A stretch of 50,133 nt of DNA, from positions 1-50,133 of IMG/VR virus record IMGVR_UViG_3300045988_134114. One strand, 5' to 3'. Origin of the DNA: a virus. The translations under genes and the position numbers were made by a program. Shown here one piece after another: positions 1,383 to 27,205 of this stretch (positions are counted from its first letter, which is position 1; every line of letters starts with the position of its first letter). Under the pieces are notes generated by a model. The model saw nothing but the letters and a program-made list of their open reading frames with translations, made no database searches and was not told the DNA's origin.

Positions 1383-2393
1383 CTATATCATGTCGATGGC
1401 TTTTCGTAAATCTTTAATCGTCTTGTGTGTATAATCATGCTTCGTAACACCTTTGCAAGCATGGCCGAGAATTTTCTTTGTGGCCGTATCATTGGCGCCG
1501 GCGCTATCCAGCATGGATGCCGTCGTGTGTCGGGTTTCGTGCGGGGTGTGCTGCATATTAAAGTGCTCCATTACGTCGTCAAAGCGGCGGCGCATGGTGC
1601 TGTATGTATGCGGCGTTCCCGTTTCCTGCTGACAGATATATTGCTGGCCGCTTTTGATTCGCTGTACAAACCACGGATAAATGCTTTTATGGATTGGTAC
1701 CGGCCGGTTCCGGCCTGCGTCGGTCTTTGATTGACGCACAATAAAATAATGGCTGCGTAATTTGACATCGCTGGCCTTTAGCTGAATGTATTCTCCGATG
1801 CGCAGGCCCGTATAGATCATGATGAGTACGTCGGCCACCTCGGCCATCTCATCCAGATTTCGCCATAATTTGTTGCGCTGCCTGACGGTAAAGGGATGCT
1901 TCGGGTATTTTTTTACATGCGGTGAAATGTCGACATACTGGGCGTAATTCGTTTTTACGAGGTCATACTTTAGCGCATAGGCGTATAGCTGTTCCATTAA
2001 CCCGCGAATTTTCTTCTGTGTGCAATAGCCGATTCCTTGTTGCTTTACGGTATCGATGACGCCCTGAAGGTGCCCAAAGCGGATAGCAGAAAAGGCCATA
2101 TCGTGCAGCTGCTCGCAATGCCTATATGAATTTTCATATCCCTTCCGACTGGATGCCGACAAATTCGGAAATTTTTGCACTTTCCAGCGGGCATATAGTT
2201 CTTTAAAGGTAATGTTGTCGGAAAATGCGGACGGGTCACGGTTAAAGTCGACCAGAAAGGAGAGGCCATGTTCAAACGTATCAAAATATCCGAGTATTTT
2301 TTGCCGCCCTTCTATCGTCTTTTTCACGACAAACGGCCGCCGCCGGTTCCCCTGCATCCGGTAAACGGTTCCGAAACCATTTGGTAATTTCAT
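1383..2393 (-). CDS. Tyrosine recombinase / phage integrase family (recombinase 1)
   Basis: 336 aa. N-terminal arm-type segment GFGTVYRMQGNRRRPFVV. Catalytic-domain motifs TGLRIGE, HETRHT, LGHA..., DYTH. Confidence 0.85.
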   Translation of the reverse strand: MKLPNGFGTVYRMQGNRRRPFVVKKTIEGRQKILGYFDTFEHGLSFLVDFNRDPSAFSDNITFKELYARWKVQKFPNLSASSRKGYENSYRHCEQLHDMAFSAIRFGHLQGVIDTVKQQGIGYCTQKKIRGLMEQLYAYALKYDLVKTNYAQYVDISPHVKKYPKHPFTVRQRNKLWRNLDEMAEVADVLIMIYTGLRIGEYIQLKASDVKLRSHYFIVRQSKTDAGRNRPVPIHKSIYPWFVQRIKSGQQYICQQETGTPHTYSTMRRRFDDVMEHFNMQHTPHETRHTTASMLDSAGANDTATKKILGHACKGVTKHDYTHKTIKDLRKAIDMI

Positions 2394-7200: not shown

Positions 7201-8301
7201 TTATTCCAGATCAAAAATATTTTGGATGTTTTGCGCAGCATTTCGGCGCATTTCTTCACTGTAATGGACATACTTTTTGATGACCGTTTCGACGGTATCC
7301 CCTAACAATGCGGCGACCGTTTTTATGTCAACGCCCCTCGCCAGCAATGTAGTTGCATACGTATGCCGTAAGACATGAATCGAGGTATCCGGAAGGACTT
7401 TCTTTATGTGATGGTTTATGATATTTGTCTCGCTGTTTTTTAAATAAAAGATTCGCCCATCCGGGGCTACTGGGAATTTCGCTTCTTTATATTCTGTCAG
7501 GATTCTTTGCAGCGTGATAGGCATAGGAATCGTCCTTTTAGAATTCGACGTCTTTAGTTTCCCTAACTTATATTCGTATGTCTTTTCAGCTGTCCGAAAT
7601 CTTTTAAATTGGCGGATAACCTTTAATTCCTTTTTGTCTAAGTCAATGGAGGCCCATGTCAGCCCGGCAATTTCGCCATAACGCAGTCCGGCATAATATC
7701 CCACCGCAGCCATCACAGAAAGCATGTACTGATTTTCATGCAAGTATGCATATAAGCAATTGAATTCCTTGGTGGAAATCGTCTGGATTTCTTCTTCATT
7801 GATTTCTGGGTAAATGATTCCGTCCATAGGAGACTTTCTCAATAATTCGTAAAATGTGATCGCGTGGCGGATCATTACTTTGAATTTGCTCATGTATAGC
7901 TCAACAGTGGATGCGGAAAGCTTGGATTCATTTACGCAAGTTTGGATATAAGCCCGTGTAAGGTCTGGTAAAGGAATATTACATAAATCCGAAAAGGCAG
8001 CTATTGCGTTTTCATAAACATCTATAGATCCATCCGAAAGCTGCTTTTTCTTATCTATTTGGTAAATGGCCCAAAATTGTTTCAATGTGATATTTTGCAT
8101 AAGAGGGTCGGCGGGTGTCGGGACATAGTTTTCCGCTATTTCTTTTAATAGCTTTTCCCCGGCAGCTTTGGCAAGGCTTTTCTGTGAGAAGCCCTGCTTT
8201 GACTTCTGTTTCCATTTTCCGTCAGCCTTATACGACAGGATAACCTGCCAGCCGGTAGATTTTTTCCGATAATGGAAAGCATGGGGAATCATATCGTCCA
8301 T
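7201..8301 (-). CDS. int: Tyrosine integrase (recombinase 2; sits beside the lysogeny module)
   Basis: Start M24 of ORF 7201..8370 with RBS GAGGAGG. Motifs AGLRYGE, HVLRHTYAT, LLGDT, YVHY. Confidence 0.85.
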   Translation of the reverse strand: MDDMIPHAFHYRKKSTGWQVILSYKADGKWKQKSKQGFSQKSLAKAAGEKLLKEIAENYVPTPADPLMQNITLKQFWAIYQIDKKKQLSDGSIDVYENAIAAFSDLCNIPLPDLTRAYIQTCVNESKLSASTVELYMSKFKVMIRHAITFYELLRKSPMDGIIYPEINEEEIQTISTKEFNCLYAYLHENQYMLSVMAAVGYYAGLRYGEIAGLTWASIDLDKKELKVIRQFKRFRTAEKTYEYKLGKLKTSNSKRTIPMPITLQRILTEYKEAKFPVAPDGRIFYLKNSETNIINHHIKKVLPDTSIHVLRHTYATTLLARGVDIKTVAALLGDTVETVIKKYVHYSEEMRRNAAQNIQNIFDLE

Positions 8302-8549
8302 GACCTTCACCTCCTCACAAAATAAAACAAGTGTTCGGCTCATTGCGTCTAAATTTTCCCCTGCCTGCAAAACGGGCAGGGGATTTTTGCGTATTAAATG
8401 TAGAATTAAATGCAGAAAATGGGATTATTCTGCATTTATCGTCTTAAAGTGAACGATAAATGGAACGATAAAGCGCGCTTTGAACAGCTTCCAAATTGGA
8501 AATAGTTGCGGTTCCCGGCAGTTGTTGCATTTTTTGCAACAACCACTTT

Positions 8550-23153: not shown

Positions 23154-23217
23154 TTTTCGACAGAAATCGGCAGATTTGTACGTTTTCGTGTCGTTTTTCG
23201 ACAGATTTGTACGTTTT
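23154..23217. repeat. Direct repeats upstream of tRNA/terS: TTTTCGACAGA x2 and CAGATTTGTACGTTTT x2 (23171-23186, 23202-23217)
   Basis: Exact 16-mers 31 bp apart. Confidence 0.7.
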
Positions 23218-23278
23218 TGTATCACTTTTCGGCAGGACGCGACGCAAAACTTGTGCTATACTAAGAGCGTAGAAATTT

Positions 23279-23375
23279 GGATGGTTGGCCGAGAGGCTTA
23301 AGGCATCAGTTTGCTAAATTGACTTACGCTGGGCGGCGCCCCGTAACGCAGGTTCGAATCCTGCACCATCCGCCA
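23279..23375 (+). tRNA. tRNA-Ser (anticodon GCU), type II with long variable arm, CCA encoded
   Basis: Hand fold. Acceptor GGATGGT/ACCATCC. D stem GCC/GGC. Anticodon stem TCAGT/ATTGA with loop TTGCTAA. 25-nt variable arm. T arm GCAGG-TTCGAAT-CCTGC. Discriminator G plus CCA. Confidence 0.8.
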
Positions 23376-23390
23376 AATTTAATAGTTATC

Positions 23391-23417
23391 AGCTCATCGA
23401 TACGATGGGCTTTTTTT
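23391..23417 (+). terminator. Intrinsic terminator after the tRNA
   Basis: AGCTCATCG-ATA-CGATGGGCT followed by T7. Confidence 0.65.
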
Positions 23418-23450
23418 ATTGCCTGAATTACACAGAAAGGAGGAATCGGC

Positions 23451-23852
23451 ATGGCAGCAAAAACAGGCAGACCGTTGACGGAAATTGATAAAAATGAATT
23501 TGAAAAGCTGTGCGGGCTTCAATGCACGCAGGAAGAAATTTGTTCATTCTTTGGAACGACACCCAAAACATTGCAACGGTGGTGCAGACGAACGTATGGG
23601 GCCGGTTTCTCCCAAGTTTTCGCGGAAAAGCGGCGGAATGGGAAAATTGCCTTGCGCCGTGCCCAGTTCCGGCTGGCACAAAAGAACGCGGCCATGGCTA
23701 TCTTCTTAGGCAAGCAATGGCTGGGGCAAAAGGACATGGATCGCGTCGAGGTCGGCGGCATCGTAGGGCAGCCCATCGAAACGGAAGAACAGGTTCATGT
23801 ACAAATCTATTTACCGGACAACAAGCGGGGCGATAGAGATGACGATACTTAG
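23451..23852 (+). CDS. terS: Terminase small subunit
   Basis: Motifs GRPLTEIDKNEFEKLCGLQCTQEEICSFFGTTPKTLQRWC and AMAIFLGKQWLGQKD. RBS AAAGGAGG. Confidence 0.8.
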   Translation: MAAKTGRPLTEIDKNEFEKLCGLQCTQEEICSFFGTTPKTLQRWCRRTYGAGFSQVFAEKRRNGKIALRRAQFRLAQKNAAMAIFLGKQWLGQKDMDRVEVGGIVGQPIETEEQVHVQIYLPDNKRGDRDDDT

Positions 23853-23913
23853 GCCGCAGCCAGGCCCTCAAGAAATATTCCTTTTGCAAAGGGCTACCGA
23901 TTTTTCTATGTAA
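23839..23913 (+). pseudogene. 24-codon stub of a second, diverged terL 5' end (MTILRPQPGPQEIFLLQRATDFSM*), overlapping the terS stop
   Basis: My translation in the terL frame. The peptide ILRPQPGPQE(I/L)FL is repeated at 23935-23973 with many synonymous differences. Confidence 0.6.
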
Positions 23914-23928
23914 CTGGGGGTGATTAAC

Positions 23929-26427
23929 TTGCCAATATTACGACCACAGCCAGGACCGCAAGAATTATTCCTTGCCTGCCCGGCCGACATTGCAATATAT
24001 GGCGGCTCTTAGTCTGCGGGCGGTGGGAAATCGTATGCCTTGTTGCTTGAATGCCTGCGGCATGTCGGGAATCCGAATTTCGGGGCTGTTATTTTCCGTC
24101 GTCAGTCTACGCAGATTATGGCTGAAGGCGGCTTATTTGATACGGCGCTGGGGATATATGTTCCACTGGGAGCGTATTTTAAACGGGTTCCTGCGCCAAC
24201 GGCCATATTCCCGAGCGGGGCAAAAATAAGCTTCCGGCACTTGCAATACGAAAAGGATGTTCACAGCTGGCAGGGTTCGCAGATACCGCTAATATGTTGT
24301 GAAATAAATACGAAAGTTTTAATGGCCGATGGAACGTATAAAAAAATCGCCGACATAAAAATCGGCGATAAAGTAAAAACACTGGAAGGTTCGGAACAAG
24401 TAGAAGCAGTAGGTCCAATAGAAGAAAGAAAATGCGTAAGGGTCGAATTACAGAATGGAAAAACTCAGATACAATCAAGCAATCATGAGTTCTTAACTAT
24501 TTCTGGGTGGCAGTCTTTTGATAACCTTCTTTTGCAACCCATTTTTCACCATAATAAGACAAAATTTTTTGTATATAAACATAGTTTAATTGCGGATAAT
24601 CACGACACAAATCTCCCATTGATTTATCAGTGGATAATGCATATTCTAAGATTTTTGTTGCAAGAGAAGGATTCGAGTCAATTAATTCCTGCGCTGTCCG
24701 TTTATCATAGGTCGAATGGCATTCGCCCACTTTTGATTTTTTTACCCAAGAGATTCCGTTTTTATCACAAATCCGGCGTATCGTTCGTGCAGAGATGCCC
24801 GTCAATTTGGCAACTTCCCGTAATCCAAAGCGGTTGTCTGGGGCATAAAGTTTTACAGTTTCAATGGCCGCCGGATCATCTATTTGTGTGGGAGAACGGC
24901 GCACATAATTCTTTGTTAATTCCGGAAAGTGTCGGCGCAATGTCTCTACAACAACGCCGAAATGTTTGGCAGTATATTTTATCCCATGATTTTCGAGAAG
25001 TTCTTTCACAACCGGGTATTGCATATTGTCGTGACTTTTCAATCTTTTCAGTTGTTGATGAATGGCCTGATGTTCCGCACGAGAAACTACTTGAAGGTTA
25101 TCAAGACGATTATCTGTCTTGTTTCCATTCTTGTGATGAATTAACTCCGAAGATTGTAAAAAACGGCCAAGAGCTCTCTCTACAATTAAACGGTGTTGTG
25201 GTACATAGCCCCATGGATTCGCCATGGGATGTTTTGGACACAGTTCATAAACGTAATGTCCATAAGTTACGATATTTCCACCCGTATACGGGCAAAGTAA
25301 TTCACTCGGAAGAGCCGTGTTCTTTAACTTCATGCAATGTTACCCCCTGCGGTAAAAGGTTGGTCCGAAATATCATGATATCTGGATGCAATTATTATAT
25401 CACCGAAAGTGGGTTAGTAAACAAAAATTGCTATGACGAATTGACGCATTTCACCGAATCGCAGTTCTTTTACATGCTATCCCGTAACCGTTCGACTTGC
25501 GGCGTGCGGCCTTATATCCGGGCGACATGCAATCCTGATGCCGATAGTTGGGTTGCTGACTTCATTTCATGGTGGATTGACCAGAGTACCGGCTATGCTA
25601 TCCCGGAACGCTCCGGGACACTTCGTTATTTTGTCCGAACGAGCGGCGAAATTACTTGGTCCAGCAGCCGGGAAGAACTGGAAGGAACATACGGCAAAGA
25701 CGCCGTGAAAAGCGTTTCCTTCATCTCGTCCTCAATCTATGACAATAAAATCTTATTGAAAGCAAACCCGGAATATTTGGCAAGCTTGAATGCCTTGCCG
25801 GAGGTCGAAAAAGAACGATTATTGCGGGGAAACTGGAAGATCCGCCCGACTGGGGGCATGTTCTTCAAGGCTTCACAGGTACAGATTGTCAAGTCGATAC
25901 CAGACAAGATTGTTTCAATCGCTAGGGCGTGGGACTTGGCCGCAACGGAAATTACGCCGGAACACAAAGACCCTGACCGCACGGCAGGGGCCTTGTGCGC
26001 ACGGCTGCGGAGCGGACAATTTATTTTTCTTGATGTCATTCGCCGGGCTGCGAATGCGTCGAGTGTTCGCAAGCTCATCAAGACGACTGCCATTATCGAC
26101 CGCGGCCTGTACCATAATGACAAGATTTATATACCGCAAGACCCCGGGCAGGCTGGGAAAGAGCAGGCTTTAAGCTACGTTCGCGAGCTGGCGGGGTACT
26201 CTATTGTTACTCATCCAGTAAGCGGCGATAAAGAAACTCGGGCCGAGCCGCTGGCCGCCCAATGGCAGCAGGGAAATGTCTTGCTGCTTGAAGGGGACTG
26301 GAATAAAGAATTTTTGAACGAAATGGAAGGCTTTCCCGTAGCCCTGCATGATGACCAAGTGGATGCGGCAAGCGATGCGTTTAACGCCGTAGCGTTGACG
26401 TCTGACTGGTCGGCATTAACATCATAA
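23929..26427 (+). CDS. terL: Terminase large subunit. It is interrupted by an in-frame TAG (24010-24012) in Walker A and by an intein (24295-25428) at Walker B
   Basis: TTG at 23929 after GGGGGTGA. N-terminus (M)PILRPQPGPQELFLACPADIAIYGGS*SAGGGKSYALLLECLRHV. Exteins ...GSQIPLI / CYDELTHF.... C-terminal nuclease-half motifs ATCNPD and ALHDDQVDA. Confidence 0.8.
24295..25428 (+). mobile_element. Intein (378 codons) in terL at the Walker B position
   Basis: Block A CCEINTKVLMADG. Block B SSNHEFLT. C-terminal blocks VRNIMISGCNYYITESGLVNKN followed by +1 Cys. Joining the exteins restores ...IPLICYDELTHF. Confidence 0.75.
24497..25333 (-). CDS. HNH homing endonuclease (HNH_3-type) with C-terminal HTH-like repeats, encoded antisense inside the intein
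   Basis: 278 aa. Motifs VPQHRLIVE and ELIHHKNGNKTDNRLDNLQVVSRAEHQAIH. HTH-like motif LREVAKLTGISARTIRRICDKNG. RBS-like GGGGGT 8 nt upstream. Confidence 0.8.
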   Translation of the reverse strand: MKLKNTALPSELLCPYTGGNIVTYGHYVYELCPKHPMANPWGYVPQHRLIVERALGRFLQSSELIHHKNGNKTDNRLDNLQVVSRAEHQAIHQQLKRLKSHDNMQYPVVKELLENHGIKYTAKHFGVVVETLRRHFPELTKNYVRRSPTQIDDPAAIETVKLYAPDNRFGLREVAKLTGISARTIRRICDKNGISWVKKSKVGECHSTYDKRTAQELIDSNPSLATKILEYALSTDKSMGDLCRDYPQLNYVYIQKILSYYGEKWVAKEGYQKTATQK

Positions 26428-26466
26428 AAAAGAGCTGTCGCACTTTTAACGTGCGGCAGCTCTTGC

Positions 26467-27132
26467 TTAAAAGGGAATGTCTTCATATTCATTGCCAAAT
26501 TGTTCTGAAGATTCCGATGAATTTTTTTGGCTTAGATCATCATTTAAATATTGATCTATAAAAGATGAAATGCCAGGCGTTATATTAGAAAGCAAAAGGT
26601 ATAAATCTTCAATCTTTTTTACAGAATCTTTATTAGCTAAATAGGAAAAAGTATCATTAAAGAAAATAAATGCTGCAATATCAATTTCTTCGCTAGGAGA
26701 TACTAACTTTTCTATTAAATAACCGCCAGTATCATATTCAGCAAAATAAGACTCACTAGAAAGAAATGTATATTCTTTGTATTGAGGAAAGAGGATTGGG
26801 TCAAATTTATTAAAAGGCGCATCCTTACTCCAATTGTTTGAAACTGTTTCAAAGATTTGCCAAGTGAGAAGTTTATTTTCGGTATCGGCAATCAATTTTT
26901 CAATCAATGCATGAATCTTTGATTTTGGACCATCATTTTTCAAGAGTAATTCATCAAGGGTAACTCCAAATAAAGTTGCCAACTTATTCAATGCGCTTGG
27001 GTCATTGGGTATTACATTATTTGTTTCGTAATAACTTATGGTGCGTTGCGTAACTCCAAGTGCTTTTGCTACGGCGGCTTGGGTTAAGTTATTTTGTTCT
27101 CGAAGAGATTTTAATTTTTCACCGAATTTCAT
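26467..27132 (-). CDS. XRE-family HTH regulator with a C-terminal domain of unknown function
   Basis: Start M5 of ORF 26467..27144. Motif LTQAAVAKALGVTQRTISYYE. Confidence 0.7.
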   Translation of the reverse strand: MKFGEKLKSLREQNNLTQAAVAKALGVTQRTISYYETNNVIPNDPSALNKLATLFGVTLDELLLKNDGPKSKIHALIEKLIADTENKLLTWQIFETVSNNWSKDAPFNKFDPILFPQYKEYTFLSSESYFAEYDTGGYLIEKLVSPSEEIDIAAFIFFNDTFSYLANKDSVKKIEDLYLLLSNITPGISSFIDQYLNDDLSQKNSSESSEQFGNEYEDIPF

Positions 27133-27205
27133 TACAATCACCACCTATACAAATTATATACAAAACATCAATTTCTAGCAAAGAAAGGATATAGAAAATT
27201 GTGTA

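What the first reader, a model, noticed from the sequence alone, without database searches (positions are those of the whole stretch)
24295..25428. terL intein whose central region is an HNH endonuclease gene on the opposite strand, with the sense frame kept open
Intein. TerL is interrupted right after ...GSQIPLI by a Hint-type intein.
- Block A: CCEINTKVLMADG.
- Block B: SSNHEFLT.
- C-terminal blocks: VRNIMISGCNYYITESGLVNKN, then +1 Cys.
Splicing would restore IPLICYDELTHF (Walker B).

Antisense gene. The 0.84 kb between the two Hint halves is where inteins normally carry a sense-strand endonuclease domain. In the sense frame this stretch translates to W/C/H/F-rich sequence with no motif I recognise. 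The complementary strand (25333 -> 24497) encodes a 278-aa protein with an unmistakable HNH_3 motif (HHKNGNKTDNRLDNLQVVSRAEH), HTH-like repeats and its own RBS-like sequence.

Open frame. The sense frame nevertheless has no stop across all 279 antisense codons, and the codon phases are offset. Under a uniform-base null, (61/64)^279 is about 1e-6. The true antisense null is less extreme.

Interpretation. This implies selection to keep the TerL precursor translatable through a free-standing, antisense homing-endonuclease gene nested in an intein. I am not aware that this architecture has been described. Antisense transcription could also couple HNH expression inversely to terL expression. HNH proteins are also known cofactors of some terminases.
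Basis: partly seen in the sequence, partly recalled or inferred. Interest (0 to 1): 0.85.

Follow-up and report, generated by a model that had tools for sequence, protein, structure and literature searches.

The report
TerL intein with antisense HNH gene
A phage DNA-packaging gene carries a self-splicing protein insert whose middle encodes a DNA-cutting enzyme on the opposite strand while the packaging gene's own frame stays stop-free; this rare layout is known for other nucleases but apparently not for HNH, and it proves widespread and mobile.

Summary
terL is interrupted at Walker B by a 378-aa Hint-fold intein (24295-25428, +). A 278-aa HNH_3+HTH gene lies on the opposite strand (25333-24497). 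The sense frame has no stop across it.

This is not chance. Synonymous shuffling of the HNH gene predicts about 11 sense stops (P(0) = 0 in 20,000). Free-standing HNH_3 controls carry 5-14 stops, as expected. All 43 HNH-bearing loci examined (window included; about 30 HNH clusters at 90% identity), from gut, soil, freshwater and a cyanobacterial prophage, show the same architecture, phase and zero stops.

Substitutions pile up at HNH third codon positions, so HNH is the selected protein. The sense middle is an unstructured linker (pLDDT below 50).

The element is mobile: intein+HNH is 99-100% identical between phages whose adjacent terL sequence is only 75-92% identical, in four lineages.

A sigma-70-like promoter for HNH sits in the codons of the intein's C-terminal splicing motif, and codon choice there is biased to keep it.

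The architecture is not new. Antisense LAGLIDADG and VSR-like endonucleases in inteins are published. An antisense HNH was not found in the searched literature.

This window's terL also has an in-frame TAG in its P-loop, so this copy may be defective.

The parts
23929..24294 (+). terL N-extein (TTG start with a GGGGGTGA ribosome-binding site). It carries an in-frame TAG at 24010-24012 inside Walker A (YGGS*SAGGGKS).
   Evidence: Sequence reading. ORF list starts the open frame only at 24040. PHROG 979 terminase large subunit, E = 6e-139. Relatives read YGGAAGGGKT or GGSAGGGKS with no extra two codons.
24295..25428 (+). Intein, 378 aa: Cys1 ... Asn378, then +1 Cys. It is inserted in the Walker B motif (IPLI|CYDELTHF).
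   Evidence: A mini-intein profile matches the gp41-1 intein 6qaz (E = 1.1e-6) over profile positions 6-120 of 130, chain residues 9-119 of 128. The AF2 model plus Foldseek gives only inteins as top hits: gp41-1, MchDnaB-1, Prp8, DnaB (prob 1.00, rmsd 1.1-1.6 A).
24295..24543 (+). Hint N-terminal half (blocks A and B: CCEINTKVLMADG ... QSSNHEFLTISGW).
   Evidence: pLDDT 83-95 for residues 1-80. Conserved in sense translation across lineages: C1, G24, D25, H64, G71, W72.
24544..25167 (+). Sense-frame linker of about 208 aa, stop-free, with no domain and no confident structure. It is the reverse complement of the HNH coding sequence.
   Evidence: No Pfam family. pLDDT below 50 for residues 84-291. 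Sense amino-acid identity is 20-40% where HNH identity is 54-80%.
25171..25428 (+). Hint C-terminal half. It holds a beta-strand (LNGVVVH), the YFHPYT motif, TPCGKRLVRNI (block F) and NYYITESGLVNKN (block G). The first ~54 codons overlap the 5' end of the HNH ORF, so both strands are under protein constraint there.
   Evidence: Constant 52-53 aa from Y.HPY to the end in all loci. pLDDT 69-95 for residues 324-378 and a strand at 293-298. The same segments are kept in the HNH-less mini-intein P0022.
24497..25333 (-). HNH_3 + helix-turn-helix endonuclease gene, 278 aa, ATG at 25333 and TAG at 24499-24497. It is the presumed homing endonuclease.
   Evidence: HNH_3 47.4 bits and HTH_28 30.3 bits. 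PHROG HNH endonuclease families. Invariant H66, H67, N79, H88 across 11 homologues. Substitutions concentrate at codon position 3. AF2 mean pLDDT 74.
25343..25348 (-). Shine-Dalgarno-like AGGGGG, 9 nt upstream of the HNH ATG. It lies in the antisense of the T-P codons of the sense TPCGK motif.
   Evidence: AGGAGTGA, AGGGGT or GGAGG-type sequences occur upstream of the HNH ATG in most loci.
25394..25421 (-). Sigma-70-like promoter TTTACT-16-(TG)TATAAT for the HNH gene. Its -10 hexamer ends 61 nt upstream of the ATG. It is encoded in the antisense of the block G codons (NYYIT...LVNKN).
   Evidence: Best promoter-like site in 23300-26600. The same position and 16-nt spacer occur in every locus in which the block-G motif search located the site; L002 and L034 score 12/12 and L007 11/12. 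The Tyr codon supplying A(-11) is TAT in 23 of 25 loci against 9.3 expected. In loci with GC of at least 0.55 it is TAT in 14 of 15, while other Hint Tyr codons are 3 TAT and 13 TAC.
24336..24369 (-). Terminator-like hairpin (9-bp stem plus T-run), stem starting 128 nt downstream of the HNH stop. It lies in the antisense of the Hint-N codons IADIKIGD.
   Evidence: A homologous 11-bp-stem site sits at the same intein position in L001. It is absent from 18 other lineages, so it is specific to this sub-lineage.
25429..26427 (+). terL C-extein (Walker B CYDELTHF onward, plus the RNaseH-like nuclease domain).
   Evidence: Terminase_6N and Terminase_6C. It diverges 15-16% from L005 starting 12 nt after the splice junction, while the intein differs by 0.7%.

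Best explanation
This is a non-canonical mobile intein in the phage terminase large subunit gene, inserted at the Walker B motif.

**Translation and splicing.** The host-frame product is translated straight through. It consists of:
- a Hint N-half of about 83 aa;
- a linker of about 208 aa with arbitrary sequence and no confident predicted structure;
- a Hint C-half of about 86 aa.

The two Hint halves fold together and splice themselves and the linker out. This rejoins ...IPLI to CYDELTHF and gives active TerL.

**The endonuclease.** It is not part of that polypeptide. It is a separate HNH_3 + helix-turn-helix gene on the opposite strand. It fills the space where inteins normally carry an in-frame endonuclease domain.
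- It has its own ribosome-binding site.
- It has a sigma-70-type promoter written in the antisense of the intein's C-terminal splicing-motif codons.
- In this sub-lineage it also has a terminator written in the antisense of Hint-N codons.

**Proposed role.** The HNH protein is the homing endonuclease. It cuts or nicks intein-less terL alleles at the conserved Walker B coding sequence. Repair then copies intein plus HNH into them.

**Why the frame stays open.** terL is essential, so any HNH-synonymous change that creates a stop in the terL frame is removed by selection. HNH wobble positions are therefore constrained and the sense frame stays open.

**Shown versus inferred.**
- Shown here: the anatomy, the Hint fold, HNH family membership, stop avoidance, which frame is under protein-level selection, the mobility signature, and the conserved promoter-like element.
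- Inferred: actual protein splicing, HNH cleavage specificity, and promoter activity.
For: **Anatomy and fold.**

**Stop avoidance.**
- The window has 0 stops against 10.7 expected; P(0) = 0 in 20,000.
- Twelve loci have 0 against 5-13 expected. Twenty-six metagenome loci have 0 against 3-13.5 expected.
- There are about 30 clusters at 90% HNH identity. The 32-row sum is 243 expected stops. Four of those rows picked the wrong frame, so about 230 is the relevant total; those loci score 0.
- Free-standing HNH_3 controls match the null.
- The HNH-seeded scans were blind to the sense frame and produced no counter-example.

**Which frame is selected.** Differences at HNH codon positions 1/2/3 are 42/22/118 for L007 vs L009 and 90/56/166 for the window vs L001. 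Window vs L005 has 6 changes inside the HNH ORF: all 6 alter the sense protein and only 2 alter HNH.

**Mobility (intein identity vs C-extein identity).**
- Window vs L005: 99.5% vs 85%.
- L009 vs L010: 100% vs 91%.
- L017 vs L018: 99.7% vs 92%.
- L011 vs L027: 99.6% vs 75%.

**Other alleles among close TerL relatives.** Intein-less alleles and a 179-aa HNH-less mini-intein at the same site coexist with the full element.

**Expression signals.**

**Alternatives excluded.** No intron RNA family is present. No flanking inverted repeats are present.
Against: - Nothing here demonstrates splicing, HNH activity or transcription.
- The intein lacks the penultimate His (K, R or Q instead). Block B is S-x-x-H or otherwise variable rather than T-x-x-H.
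- Pfam Hint matches are below the gathering scores.
- In this window terL has an in-frame TAG in the P-loop (24010-24012) and a duplicated, truncated 5' end. The local copy may therefore be a recently inactivated prophage gene rather than a working one.
- Eight of the twelve promoter bases are forced by the protein motif. Only the codon-choice bias argues for selection on the promoter.
- The lineages are related, so the P-values over loci overstate independence.
Confidence: 0.85

Rival explanations
1. The open sense frame is a by-product of composition or codon usage of the HNH gene and carries no meaning.
For: Antisense frames of coding genes can be long, especially in GC-rich DNA. In GC-rich loci only 3-5 stops are expected.
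Against: Synonymous shuffles that keep protein and codon usage give P(0) of at most 0.017 in each locus, and 0 in 20,000 for the window. Free-standing HNH_3 genes carry the expected 5-14 stops. All ~30 lineages have zero stops in the same phase.
Confidence: 0.01
2. It is a decaying element. Either the intein is dead and TerL is non-functional, or the antisense HNH is a pseudogene relic. The architecture then has no current function.
For: The window's terL has a premature TAG in the P-loop and a duplicated, truncated 5' end. An HNH-less mini-intein exists at the same site (P0022), which shows that loss does occur.
Against: HNH ORFs are intact in all 43 HNH-bearing loci examined, with third-position-biased substitutions. 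Full-length precursors with intact Walker A exist in L003, L007, L009, L011, L012 and L013. Near-identical inteins in diverged exteins indicate recent transfer. At most, this rival applies to the window copy alone.
Confidence: 0.1
3. The HNH protein is not a homing endonuclease but a packaging cofactor of the terminase, like the HK97 gp74-type HNH proteins. It is nested in terL for co-regulation.
For: HNH proteins next to terminase genes are common. L042 has a free-standing NUMOD4-HNH_3 gene directly upstream of its terL.
Against: The protein combines HNH_3 with several helix-turn-helix modules, an architecture typical of site-specific homing enzymes. It occurs only in intein-bearing alleles, while most close TerL relatives lack both intein and HNH. 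It travels with the intein between diverged terL genes. A packaging cofactor would not need to sit inside an intein on the wrong strand.
Confidence: 0.05
4. The insert is removed at the RNA or DNA level (group I/II intron or invertible segment), not by protein splicing.
For: Antisense endonuclease genes are known in group I introns (own knowledge).
Against: No Rfam family matches on either strand. No flanking inverted repeats are present. An RNA- or DNA-level removal would not require an open sense frame, yet the frame is open in every lineage. The flanks form a Hint fold with Cys1, block B His and a terminal Asn followed by Cys.
Confidence: 0.01

Closest known systems
Non-canonical inteins with an antisense LAGLIDADG endonuclease (Gorbalenya 1998 and Gogarten 2002, as cited in bioRxiv 10.1101/2025.01.02.630785; actinophage minor-capsid inteins in that preprint)
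   Same: - Hint halves lie in the host frame.
- There is no in-frame endonuclease domain.
- A separate endonuclease ORF lies on the opposite strand in the central region.
- The sense frame is open.
- Near-identical inteins occur in divergent exteins, indicating ongoing invasion.
   Different: - The nuclease family differs: HNH_3 + HTH here, LAGLIDADG there.
- The hosts differ: diverse non-actinobacterial phages and a cyanobacterial prophage here.
- No quantitative stop-avoidance test or embedded promoter appears in the parts of the paper I read.
Actinophage inteins with an antisense VSR-like (EDxHD-like) endonuclease (bioRxiv 10.1101/2025.01.02.630785)
   Same: An antisense free-standing-type endonuclease gene sits inside a contiguous intein. 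The authors explain it as invasion of an intein by a free-standing endonuclease gene. Terminase large subunit is one of the four host protein types they list for their non-canonical inteins.
   Different: The nuclease fold differs. The antisense ORF and the Hint halves in our family show no relationship to it.
[quoted passage not shown]
   Same: They use the same nuclease family (HNH_3) as the intein's mobility module. Splicing of the CL131 intein was shown experimentally.
   Different: There the HNH is part of the intein polypeptide. Here it is a separate protein from the opposite strand, and the in-frame sequence is a structureless linker.
Fractured genes: split inteins separated by a free-standing endonuclease gene (Dassa et al. 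2009, PMC2677866)
   Same: A free-standing endonuclease gene sits between the N and C Hint halves of an intein in a phage or environmental gene.
   Different: In fractured genes the host ORF is broken into two genes and splicing is in trans. Here the frame is continuous in every locus.
Out-of-frame nested endonucleases: cyanobacterial dnaX intein +2 ORF LAGLIDADG (bioRxiv 10.64898/2026.09.14.751524) and the ShiLan hidden HNH in a phage methylase (PMC11855218)
   Same: They share the overlapping-frame logic. The endonuclease frame is under purifying selection. The host frame is kept open but evolves fast.
   Different: Those ORFs lie on the same strand in a shifted frame. ShiLan has no Hint domain at all.

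Membership tests
Intein (Hint-fold protein-splicing element) | In-frame insertion at a conserved site of a host protein; removing it restores the host motif | tested here: met
   Removing 24295-25428 gives GSQIPLI-CYDELTHF. This aligns with the intein-less TerL P0027 (...AYIGFDELTHF) and with Terminase_6N on both sides.
Intein (Hint-fold protein-splicing element) | N-terminal nucleophile (Cys/Ser1), block B His, C-terminal Asn followed by Cys/Ser/Thr (+1) | tested here: met
   C1, H64, N378 and +1 Cys are invariant in 10 lineages. The penultimate His is absent (K/R/Q) and the block B Thr is not conserved. These are atypical features but are not required in all inteins (own knowledge).
Intein (Hint-fold protein-splicing element) | Hint fold | tested here: met
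   The profile of N+C halves hits gp41-1 mini-intein 6qaz over profile positions 6-120 of 130, chain residues 9-119 of 128 (E = 1.1e-6), and also PI-SceI and DnaB. The top 50 Foldseek hits for the AF2 model are almost all inteins, the rest being related Hint-fold domains (BIL2, hedgehog, Vint), prob 0.98-1.00. Pfam Hint-family matches are below the gathering score.
Intein (Hint-fold protein-splicing element) | Protein-splicing activity | not testable with these tools
   Inferred only, from the essential nature of terL and the open frame.
HNH_3 homing endonuclease | HNH_3 domain with catalytic His...Asn...His | tested here: met
   PF13392, 47.4 bits against a cut-off of 24.8. H66, H67, N79 and H88 are invariant in 11 homologues.
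HNH_3 homing endonuclease | Site-specific cleavage of the element-free allele and element spread by repair | tested here: inconclusive
   Cleavage is not testable here. Indirect support is that intein+HNH is 99-100% identical within exteins that are 75-92% identical, in four lineages. Intein-less alleles are common among close TerL relatives.
Non-canonical intein with antisense-encoded endonuclease (Gorbalenya 1998; Gosselin et al. 2025) | Hint halves in the host frame, no in-frame endonuclease domain, intact endonuclease ORF on the opposite strand between them, sense frame open | tested here: met
   The nuclease family (HNH_3) differs from the published LAGLIDADG and VSR-like cases.
Split intein / fractured gene (Dassa 2009) | Host gene broken into two ORFs by stops between the Hint halves | tested here: not met
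   There are zero sense-frame stops in all 43 HNH-bearing loci.
Self-splicing intron carrying an endonuclease gene | Ribozyme core (group I/II) flanking the ORF | tested here: not met
   No Rfam match other than a tRNA in 23200-26600 at E up to 1.

The most novel reading that the evidence does not exclude
The antisense layout may be an adaptive, anciently co-evolved dual-coded unit rather than an accident of insertion.

- The codons of the intein's catalytic block G double as the HNH promoter.
- The HNH start region doubles as Hint-C strands.
- Convergent transcription would make HNH expression anti-correlated with late terL transcription.
- HNH would then be made early, or from the prophage, so as to attack intein-less co-infecting or superinfecting relatives, and would be silenced when TerL is needed.

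The uniform phase in all lineages, and the absence of free-standing relatives of this HNH clade in the scans, would then reflect one old origin followed by long co-evolution.
Probability: 0.2. Interest if true: 0.75.

Novelty: new variant of a known kind. Interest (0 to 1): 0.55.

Why it matters
- **A third nuclease family.** It adds HNH_3+HTH to the short list of inteins whose mobility enzyme is a separate antisense gene. The layout turns out to be widespread and evolutionarily stable, with about 30 lineages across very different phages and GC contents. It is not just a rare curiosity of actinophages.
- **A clean case of overlapping-gene selection.** One strand is selected for protein sequence. 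The other is selected almost only for the absence of stops. At both ends, short zones have both strands constrained.
- **Support for the splicing-first model.** It fits the view that free-standing endonuclease genes invade pre-existing mini-inteins.
- **Annotation consequence.** Gene callers usually pick the HNH ORF and split terL, as in L003. A word-indexed search of 5.8 billion proteins with the intein found no sense precursor. The exhaustive search recovered only a handful (P0020-P0025 and similar). Such terminases are therefore often mis-annotated as fragments.

Tried and rejected
- **HNH fold search.** Foldseek of the whole HNH model against PDB gave no hit with E below 0.7 (multi-domain model, pTM 0.37), so it was uninformative.
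- **HNH profile against PDB sequences.** No hit.
- **Protein search with the sense intein.** One weak RecA-intein hit only.
- **P-loop variant.** An exact-pattern scan of viral contigs for the P-loop region, to see whether the TAG-containing 6-bp insertion is polymorphic, gave no match.
- **Invertible-segment idea.** Only 12-15 nt chance inverted repeats were found.
- **Intron idea.** No Rfam family.
- **Family-wide terminator.** The hairpin is present only in the window and L001 (2 of 20 loci), so it is lineage-specific.
- **Meaning of the conserved phase (offset 1).** All three antisense phases can be kept open by synonymous choice. Two independent intein sites sharing a phase is not significant, so common ancestry is the simpler reading.
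- ** artefact.** In the re-clustering script, four GC-rich loci picked the wrong frame (non-zero counts for L003, L013, L018, L036). The correct values for those loci are, and all are 0.
Full report
**1. What is in the window**

ORF 24040-26427 (+, 795 aa) is a terminase large subunit. It matches PHROG 979 (E = 6e-139) and Pfam Terminase_6N and Terminase_6C.

It is interrupted after ...GSQIPLI by 378 codons (24295-25428). These begin CCEINTKVLMADG and end ...YYITESGLVNKN, followed by Cys. Removing them gives IPLI-CYDELTHF. This is the Walker B motif seen uninterrupted in close relatives, for example P0027 ...AYIGFDELTHF.

On the opposite strand, 25333-24497 encodes a 278-aa protein.
- It matches HNH_3 (47.4 bits, cut-off 24.8) and HTH_28.
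- It also matches several PHROG HNH-endonuclease families.
- The sense translation of the same stretch matches nothing.

**2. Is the open sense frame more than chance?**

terL codon position 1 lies opposite HNH codon position 1. A sense stop therefore corresponds to N-TT|A, N-CT|A or N-TC|A across two HNH codons.

*The window.*
- Shuffling synonymous codons within the HNH gene keeps the protein and codon usage. It gives a mean of 10.7 sense stops and none stop-free in 20,000 trials.
- There are 47 dipeptides that could have produced a stop, and none does.

*Controls.* Four free-standing HNH_3 genes have 5, 7, 14 and 11 stops in this relative frame. The expected values are 5.2, 8.4, 12.4 and 11.5, so the null is sound.

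**3. Relatives**

Searches were seeded only on the HNH protein, so they were blind to the sense frame.
- The protein database returned 4 homologues at 44-99% identity. Their contigs are L001-L006.
- The scans returned 8 viral contigs.
- They returned one cyanobacterial MAG chromosome.
- They returned 26 metagenome contigs.

*Shared architecture.* In every locus the HNH gene lies antisense inside a TerL intein. In every locus the phase is the same and the sense frame has zero stops, against 3-13.5 expected per locus.
- All sit at the Walker B site except L014.
- L014 is a different TerL family with an intein at the P-loop and an HNH with reversed domain order.
- One further locus, L044, came from a precursor protein and has the same layout.
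- This makes about 30 clusters at 90% HNH identity and roughly 230 stops expected in total, with none observed (four mis-framed rows there are superseded).

*Range.* GC content runs from 0.37 to 0.66. Only the cyanobacterial MAG carries an organism name. The environmental origins of the other contigs were judged from their record names, not from a tool result.

**4. Which strand encodes the selected protein?**

HNH proteins align end to end with invariant catalytic residues H66, H67, N79 and H88.

Between lineages, differences concentrate at HNH third codon positions.
- L007 vs L009: 42/22/118.
- Window vs L001: 90/56/166.

The sense translation of the same codons is only 20-40% identical where HNH is 54-80% identical. 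Between the window and L005, all 6 changes inside the HNH ORF alter the sense protein and only 2 alter HNH.

HNH is therefore under protein-level purifying selection. The sense middle is selected essentially only to lack stops.

**5. The Hint domain**

Sense translations are conserved only at the two ends.
- The N-terminal conserved part is about 75 aa, up to GW.
- The C-terminal conserved part is a constant 52-53 aa from Y.HPY to the terminal Asn.

*Sequence evidence.* A profile of the concatenated ends matches the 128-aa gp41-1 mini-intein (6qaz) over profile positions 6-120 of 130, chain residues 9-119 of 128 (E = 1.1e-6). It also matches PI-SceI and DnaB inteins.

*Structure evidence.* AlphaFold2 on the window intein used an alignment of the window intein with nine full-length homologous TerL precursors.
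- Residues 1-80: pLDDT 83-95.
- Residues 84-291: pLDDT below 50.
- Residues 293-298: a strand.
- Residues 324-378: pLDDT 69-95.

Foldseek against PDB returns almost only inteins at the top, prob 1.00 and rmsd 1.1-1.6 A.

*Overlaps.* The HNH ORF overlaps both Hint halves slightly.
- Its first ~54 codons overlap Hint-C, including a CCGTATACGG palindrome that reads PYT on both strands.
- Its last codons overlap the end of Hint-N.

*HNH-less relative.* P0022 (locus L042) is a 179-aa mini-intein at the same site. It keeps the Hint segments and has no antisense ORF.

**6. Mobility**

The intein+HNH unit is nearly identical between phages whose neighbouring terL sequence has diverged.

| Pair | Last 750 nt of intein | First ≤450 nt of C-extein |
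|---|---|---|
| Window vs L005 | 99.5% | 85% |
| L009 vs L010 | 100% | 91% |
| L017 vs L018 | 99.7% | 92% |
| L011 vs L027 | 99.6% | 75% |

- In raw counts, window vs L005 has 7 differences in about 950 nt of intein and 77 in 480 nt of extein. Divergence starts 12 nt past the junction.
- Among the 150 best TerL relatives most are intein-less, at about 440-500 aa. Others carry canonical in-frame LAGLIDADG inteins elsewhere in the protein.
- This is the expected picture for an actively homing element.

**7. Expression signals of the HNH gene**

*Ribosome-binding site.* AGGGGG lies 9 nt upstream of the ATG. Similar sites occur in most loci.

*Promoter.* The best sigma-70-like site in 23300-26600 is on the minus strand at 25421-25394. 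It reads TTTACT-16-(TG)TATAAT and ends 61 nt upstream of the ATG.
- The same position and spacing recur in every locus in which the block-G motif search located the site. L002 and L034 score 12/12 and L007 11/12.
- The element is the antisense of the block G codons N-H-Y-I-T...V-N-x-N. Eight of the twelve bases are forced by the protein motif.
- The free positions are nevertheless biased. The Tyr codon that supplies A(-11) is TAT in 23 of 25 distinct loci against 9.3 expected from local usage.
- In loci with GC of at least 0.55 it is TAT in 14 of 15. Other Tyr codons in the non-overlapped Hint parts of the same inteins are 3 TAT and 13 TAC.

*Terminator.* A terminator-like hairpin on the HNH strand lies in Hint-N codons (24369-24346). 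It is shared with L001 only.

These are consensus matches plus a codon-bias argument. They do not demonstrate transcription.

**8. Comparison with what is known**

The class is already described.
- bioRxiv 10.1101/2025.01.02.630785 cites Gorbalenya 1998 and Gogarten 2002 for antisense LAGLIDADG endonucleases in inteins.
[quoted passage not shown] Terminase large subunit is one of the four host protein types it lists. It reports HNH only in frame.
- Same-strand overlapping cases are the cyanobacterial dnaX intein and the ShiLan hidden HNH.
- Fractured genes (Dassa 2009) differ because the host ORF is broken.
- Six full-text searches found no report of an antisense HNH inside an intein. The library does not cover all journals.

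I therefore file this as a new variant of a known kind.

**9. Caveat for this window**

The terL frame upstream of 24040 contains TAG at 24010-24012 within YGGS*SAGGGKS. Relatives read YGGAAGGGK or GGSAGGGKS, so this looks like a 6-bp insertion.
- TAG also ends terS and the HNH gene.
- The only tRNA found is tRNA-Ser(GCT).
- Recoding is therefore unlikely.

A truncated duplicate of the terL 5' end (23839-23913, MTILRPQPGPQEIFL...) precedes the TTG start at 23929.

The window is a temperate siphophage or prophage with integrases, RecE/RecT, terS, portal and tape measure genes. Its terL may be recently inactivated. Alternatively, the TAG may be an assembly error.

This does not affect the family-level conclusions. 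The intein here differs by only 0.7% from that in L005.

**10. Verdict**

- The novelty claim is reduced to a new nuclease variant of a published architecture.
- The new details are the breadth of the family, a calibrated selection test, a homing signature in four lineages, and a promoter embedded in the splicing-motif codons.

Noticed in passing
window 24010-24012: There is an in-frame TAG inside the terL P-loop (YGGS*SAGGGKS). Relative to relatives (GGSAGGGKS or GGAAGGGK) it looks like a 6-bp insertion (TCTTAG). TAG is also the stop of terS and HNH, and no suppressor tRNA is present. This terL copy may be defective, or the base call may be wrong.
   Followed up: partly
window 23839-23913 versus 23929-23975: A truncated duplicate of the terL 5' end overlaps the end of terS (ATG at 23839; MTILRPQPGPQEIFLLQRATDFSM*). 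It is followed 15 nt later by a second terL start (TTG at 23929) with its own ribosome-binding site. It looks like a recombination scar from replacement of the terL 5' region, possibly co-conversion during intein homing.
   Followed up: no
window 25282-25291: The perfect palindrome CCGTATACGG encodes Pro-Tyr-Thr on both strands (sense YFHPYTGK, antisense LCPYTGG). The sense HPY(T) motif is conserved in all lineages.
   Followed up: partly
L005 and L006 (whole contigs): Two contigs from different assemblies both end exactly 6 nt past the HNH stop codon, at the Hint-N/HNH boundary. This suggests a sequence-variant branch point there in those metagenomes.
   Followed up: no
L014 4187-6748: A different TerL family carries an intein at the P-loop (GIA|CVSGDTLIL...IINHN|SGKS). 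It has an antisense HNH whose domain order is reversed (HTH first, HNH last). The phase is the same and there are zero sense stops against 7 expected. It is possibly an independent origin of the layout.
   Followed up: partly
L015 4814-8791 (Stenomitos frigidus MAG, CP170648.1): A 1326-aa TerL precursor in a cyanobacterial chromosome carries two inteins. One is a P-loop intein with an in-frame LAGLIDADG-like domain. The other is the Walker B intein with an antisense HNH that has a duplicated HTH module.
   Followed up: no
L042 2498-4911: A TerL with a 179-aa mini-intein at the same Walker B site has no antisense ORF. A free-standing NUMOD4-HNH_3 gene lies immediately upstream of terL on the same strand.
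   Followed up: partly
window 26467-27144 (-): An XRE-type helix-turn-helix regulator gene lies on the opposite strand between terL and the portal gene. This is an unusual position inside a packaging/head module.
   Followed up: no
window 23279-23375: A tRNA-Ser(GCT) gene with a terminator-like hairpin lies directly upstream of terS.
   Followed up: no
window 1386-2393 (-) and 7204-8370 (-): Two tyrosine-integrase genes lie in the left part of the window. This suggests either two adjacent integrated elements or a prophage next to another mobile element.
   Followed up: no
L003 2566-5083: The gene caller annotated the HNH ORF and only a 389-aa C-terminal fragment of terL. It left the N-terminal half uncalled although an 838-aa open precursor exists. 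This architecture systematically breaks terL annotation.
   Followed up: yes
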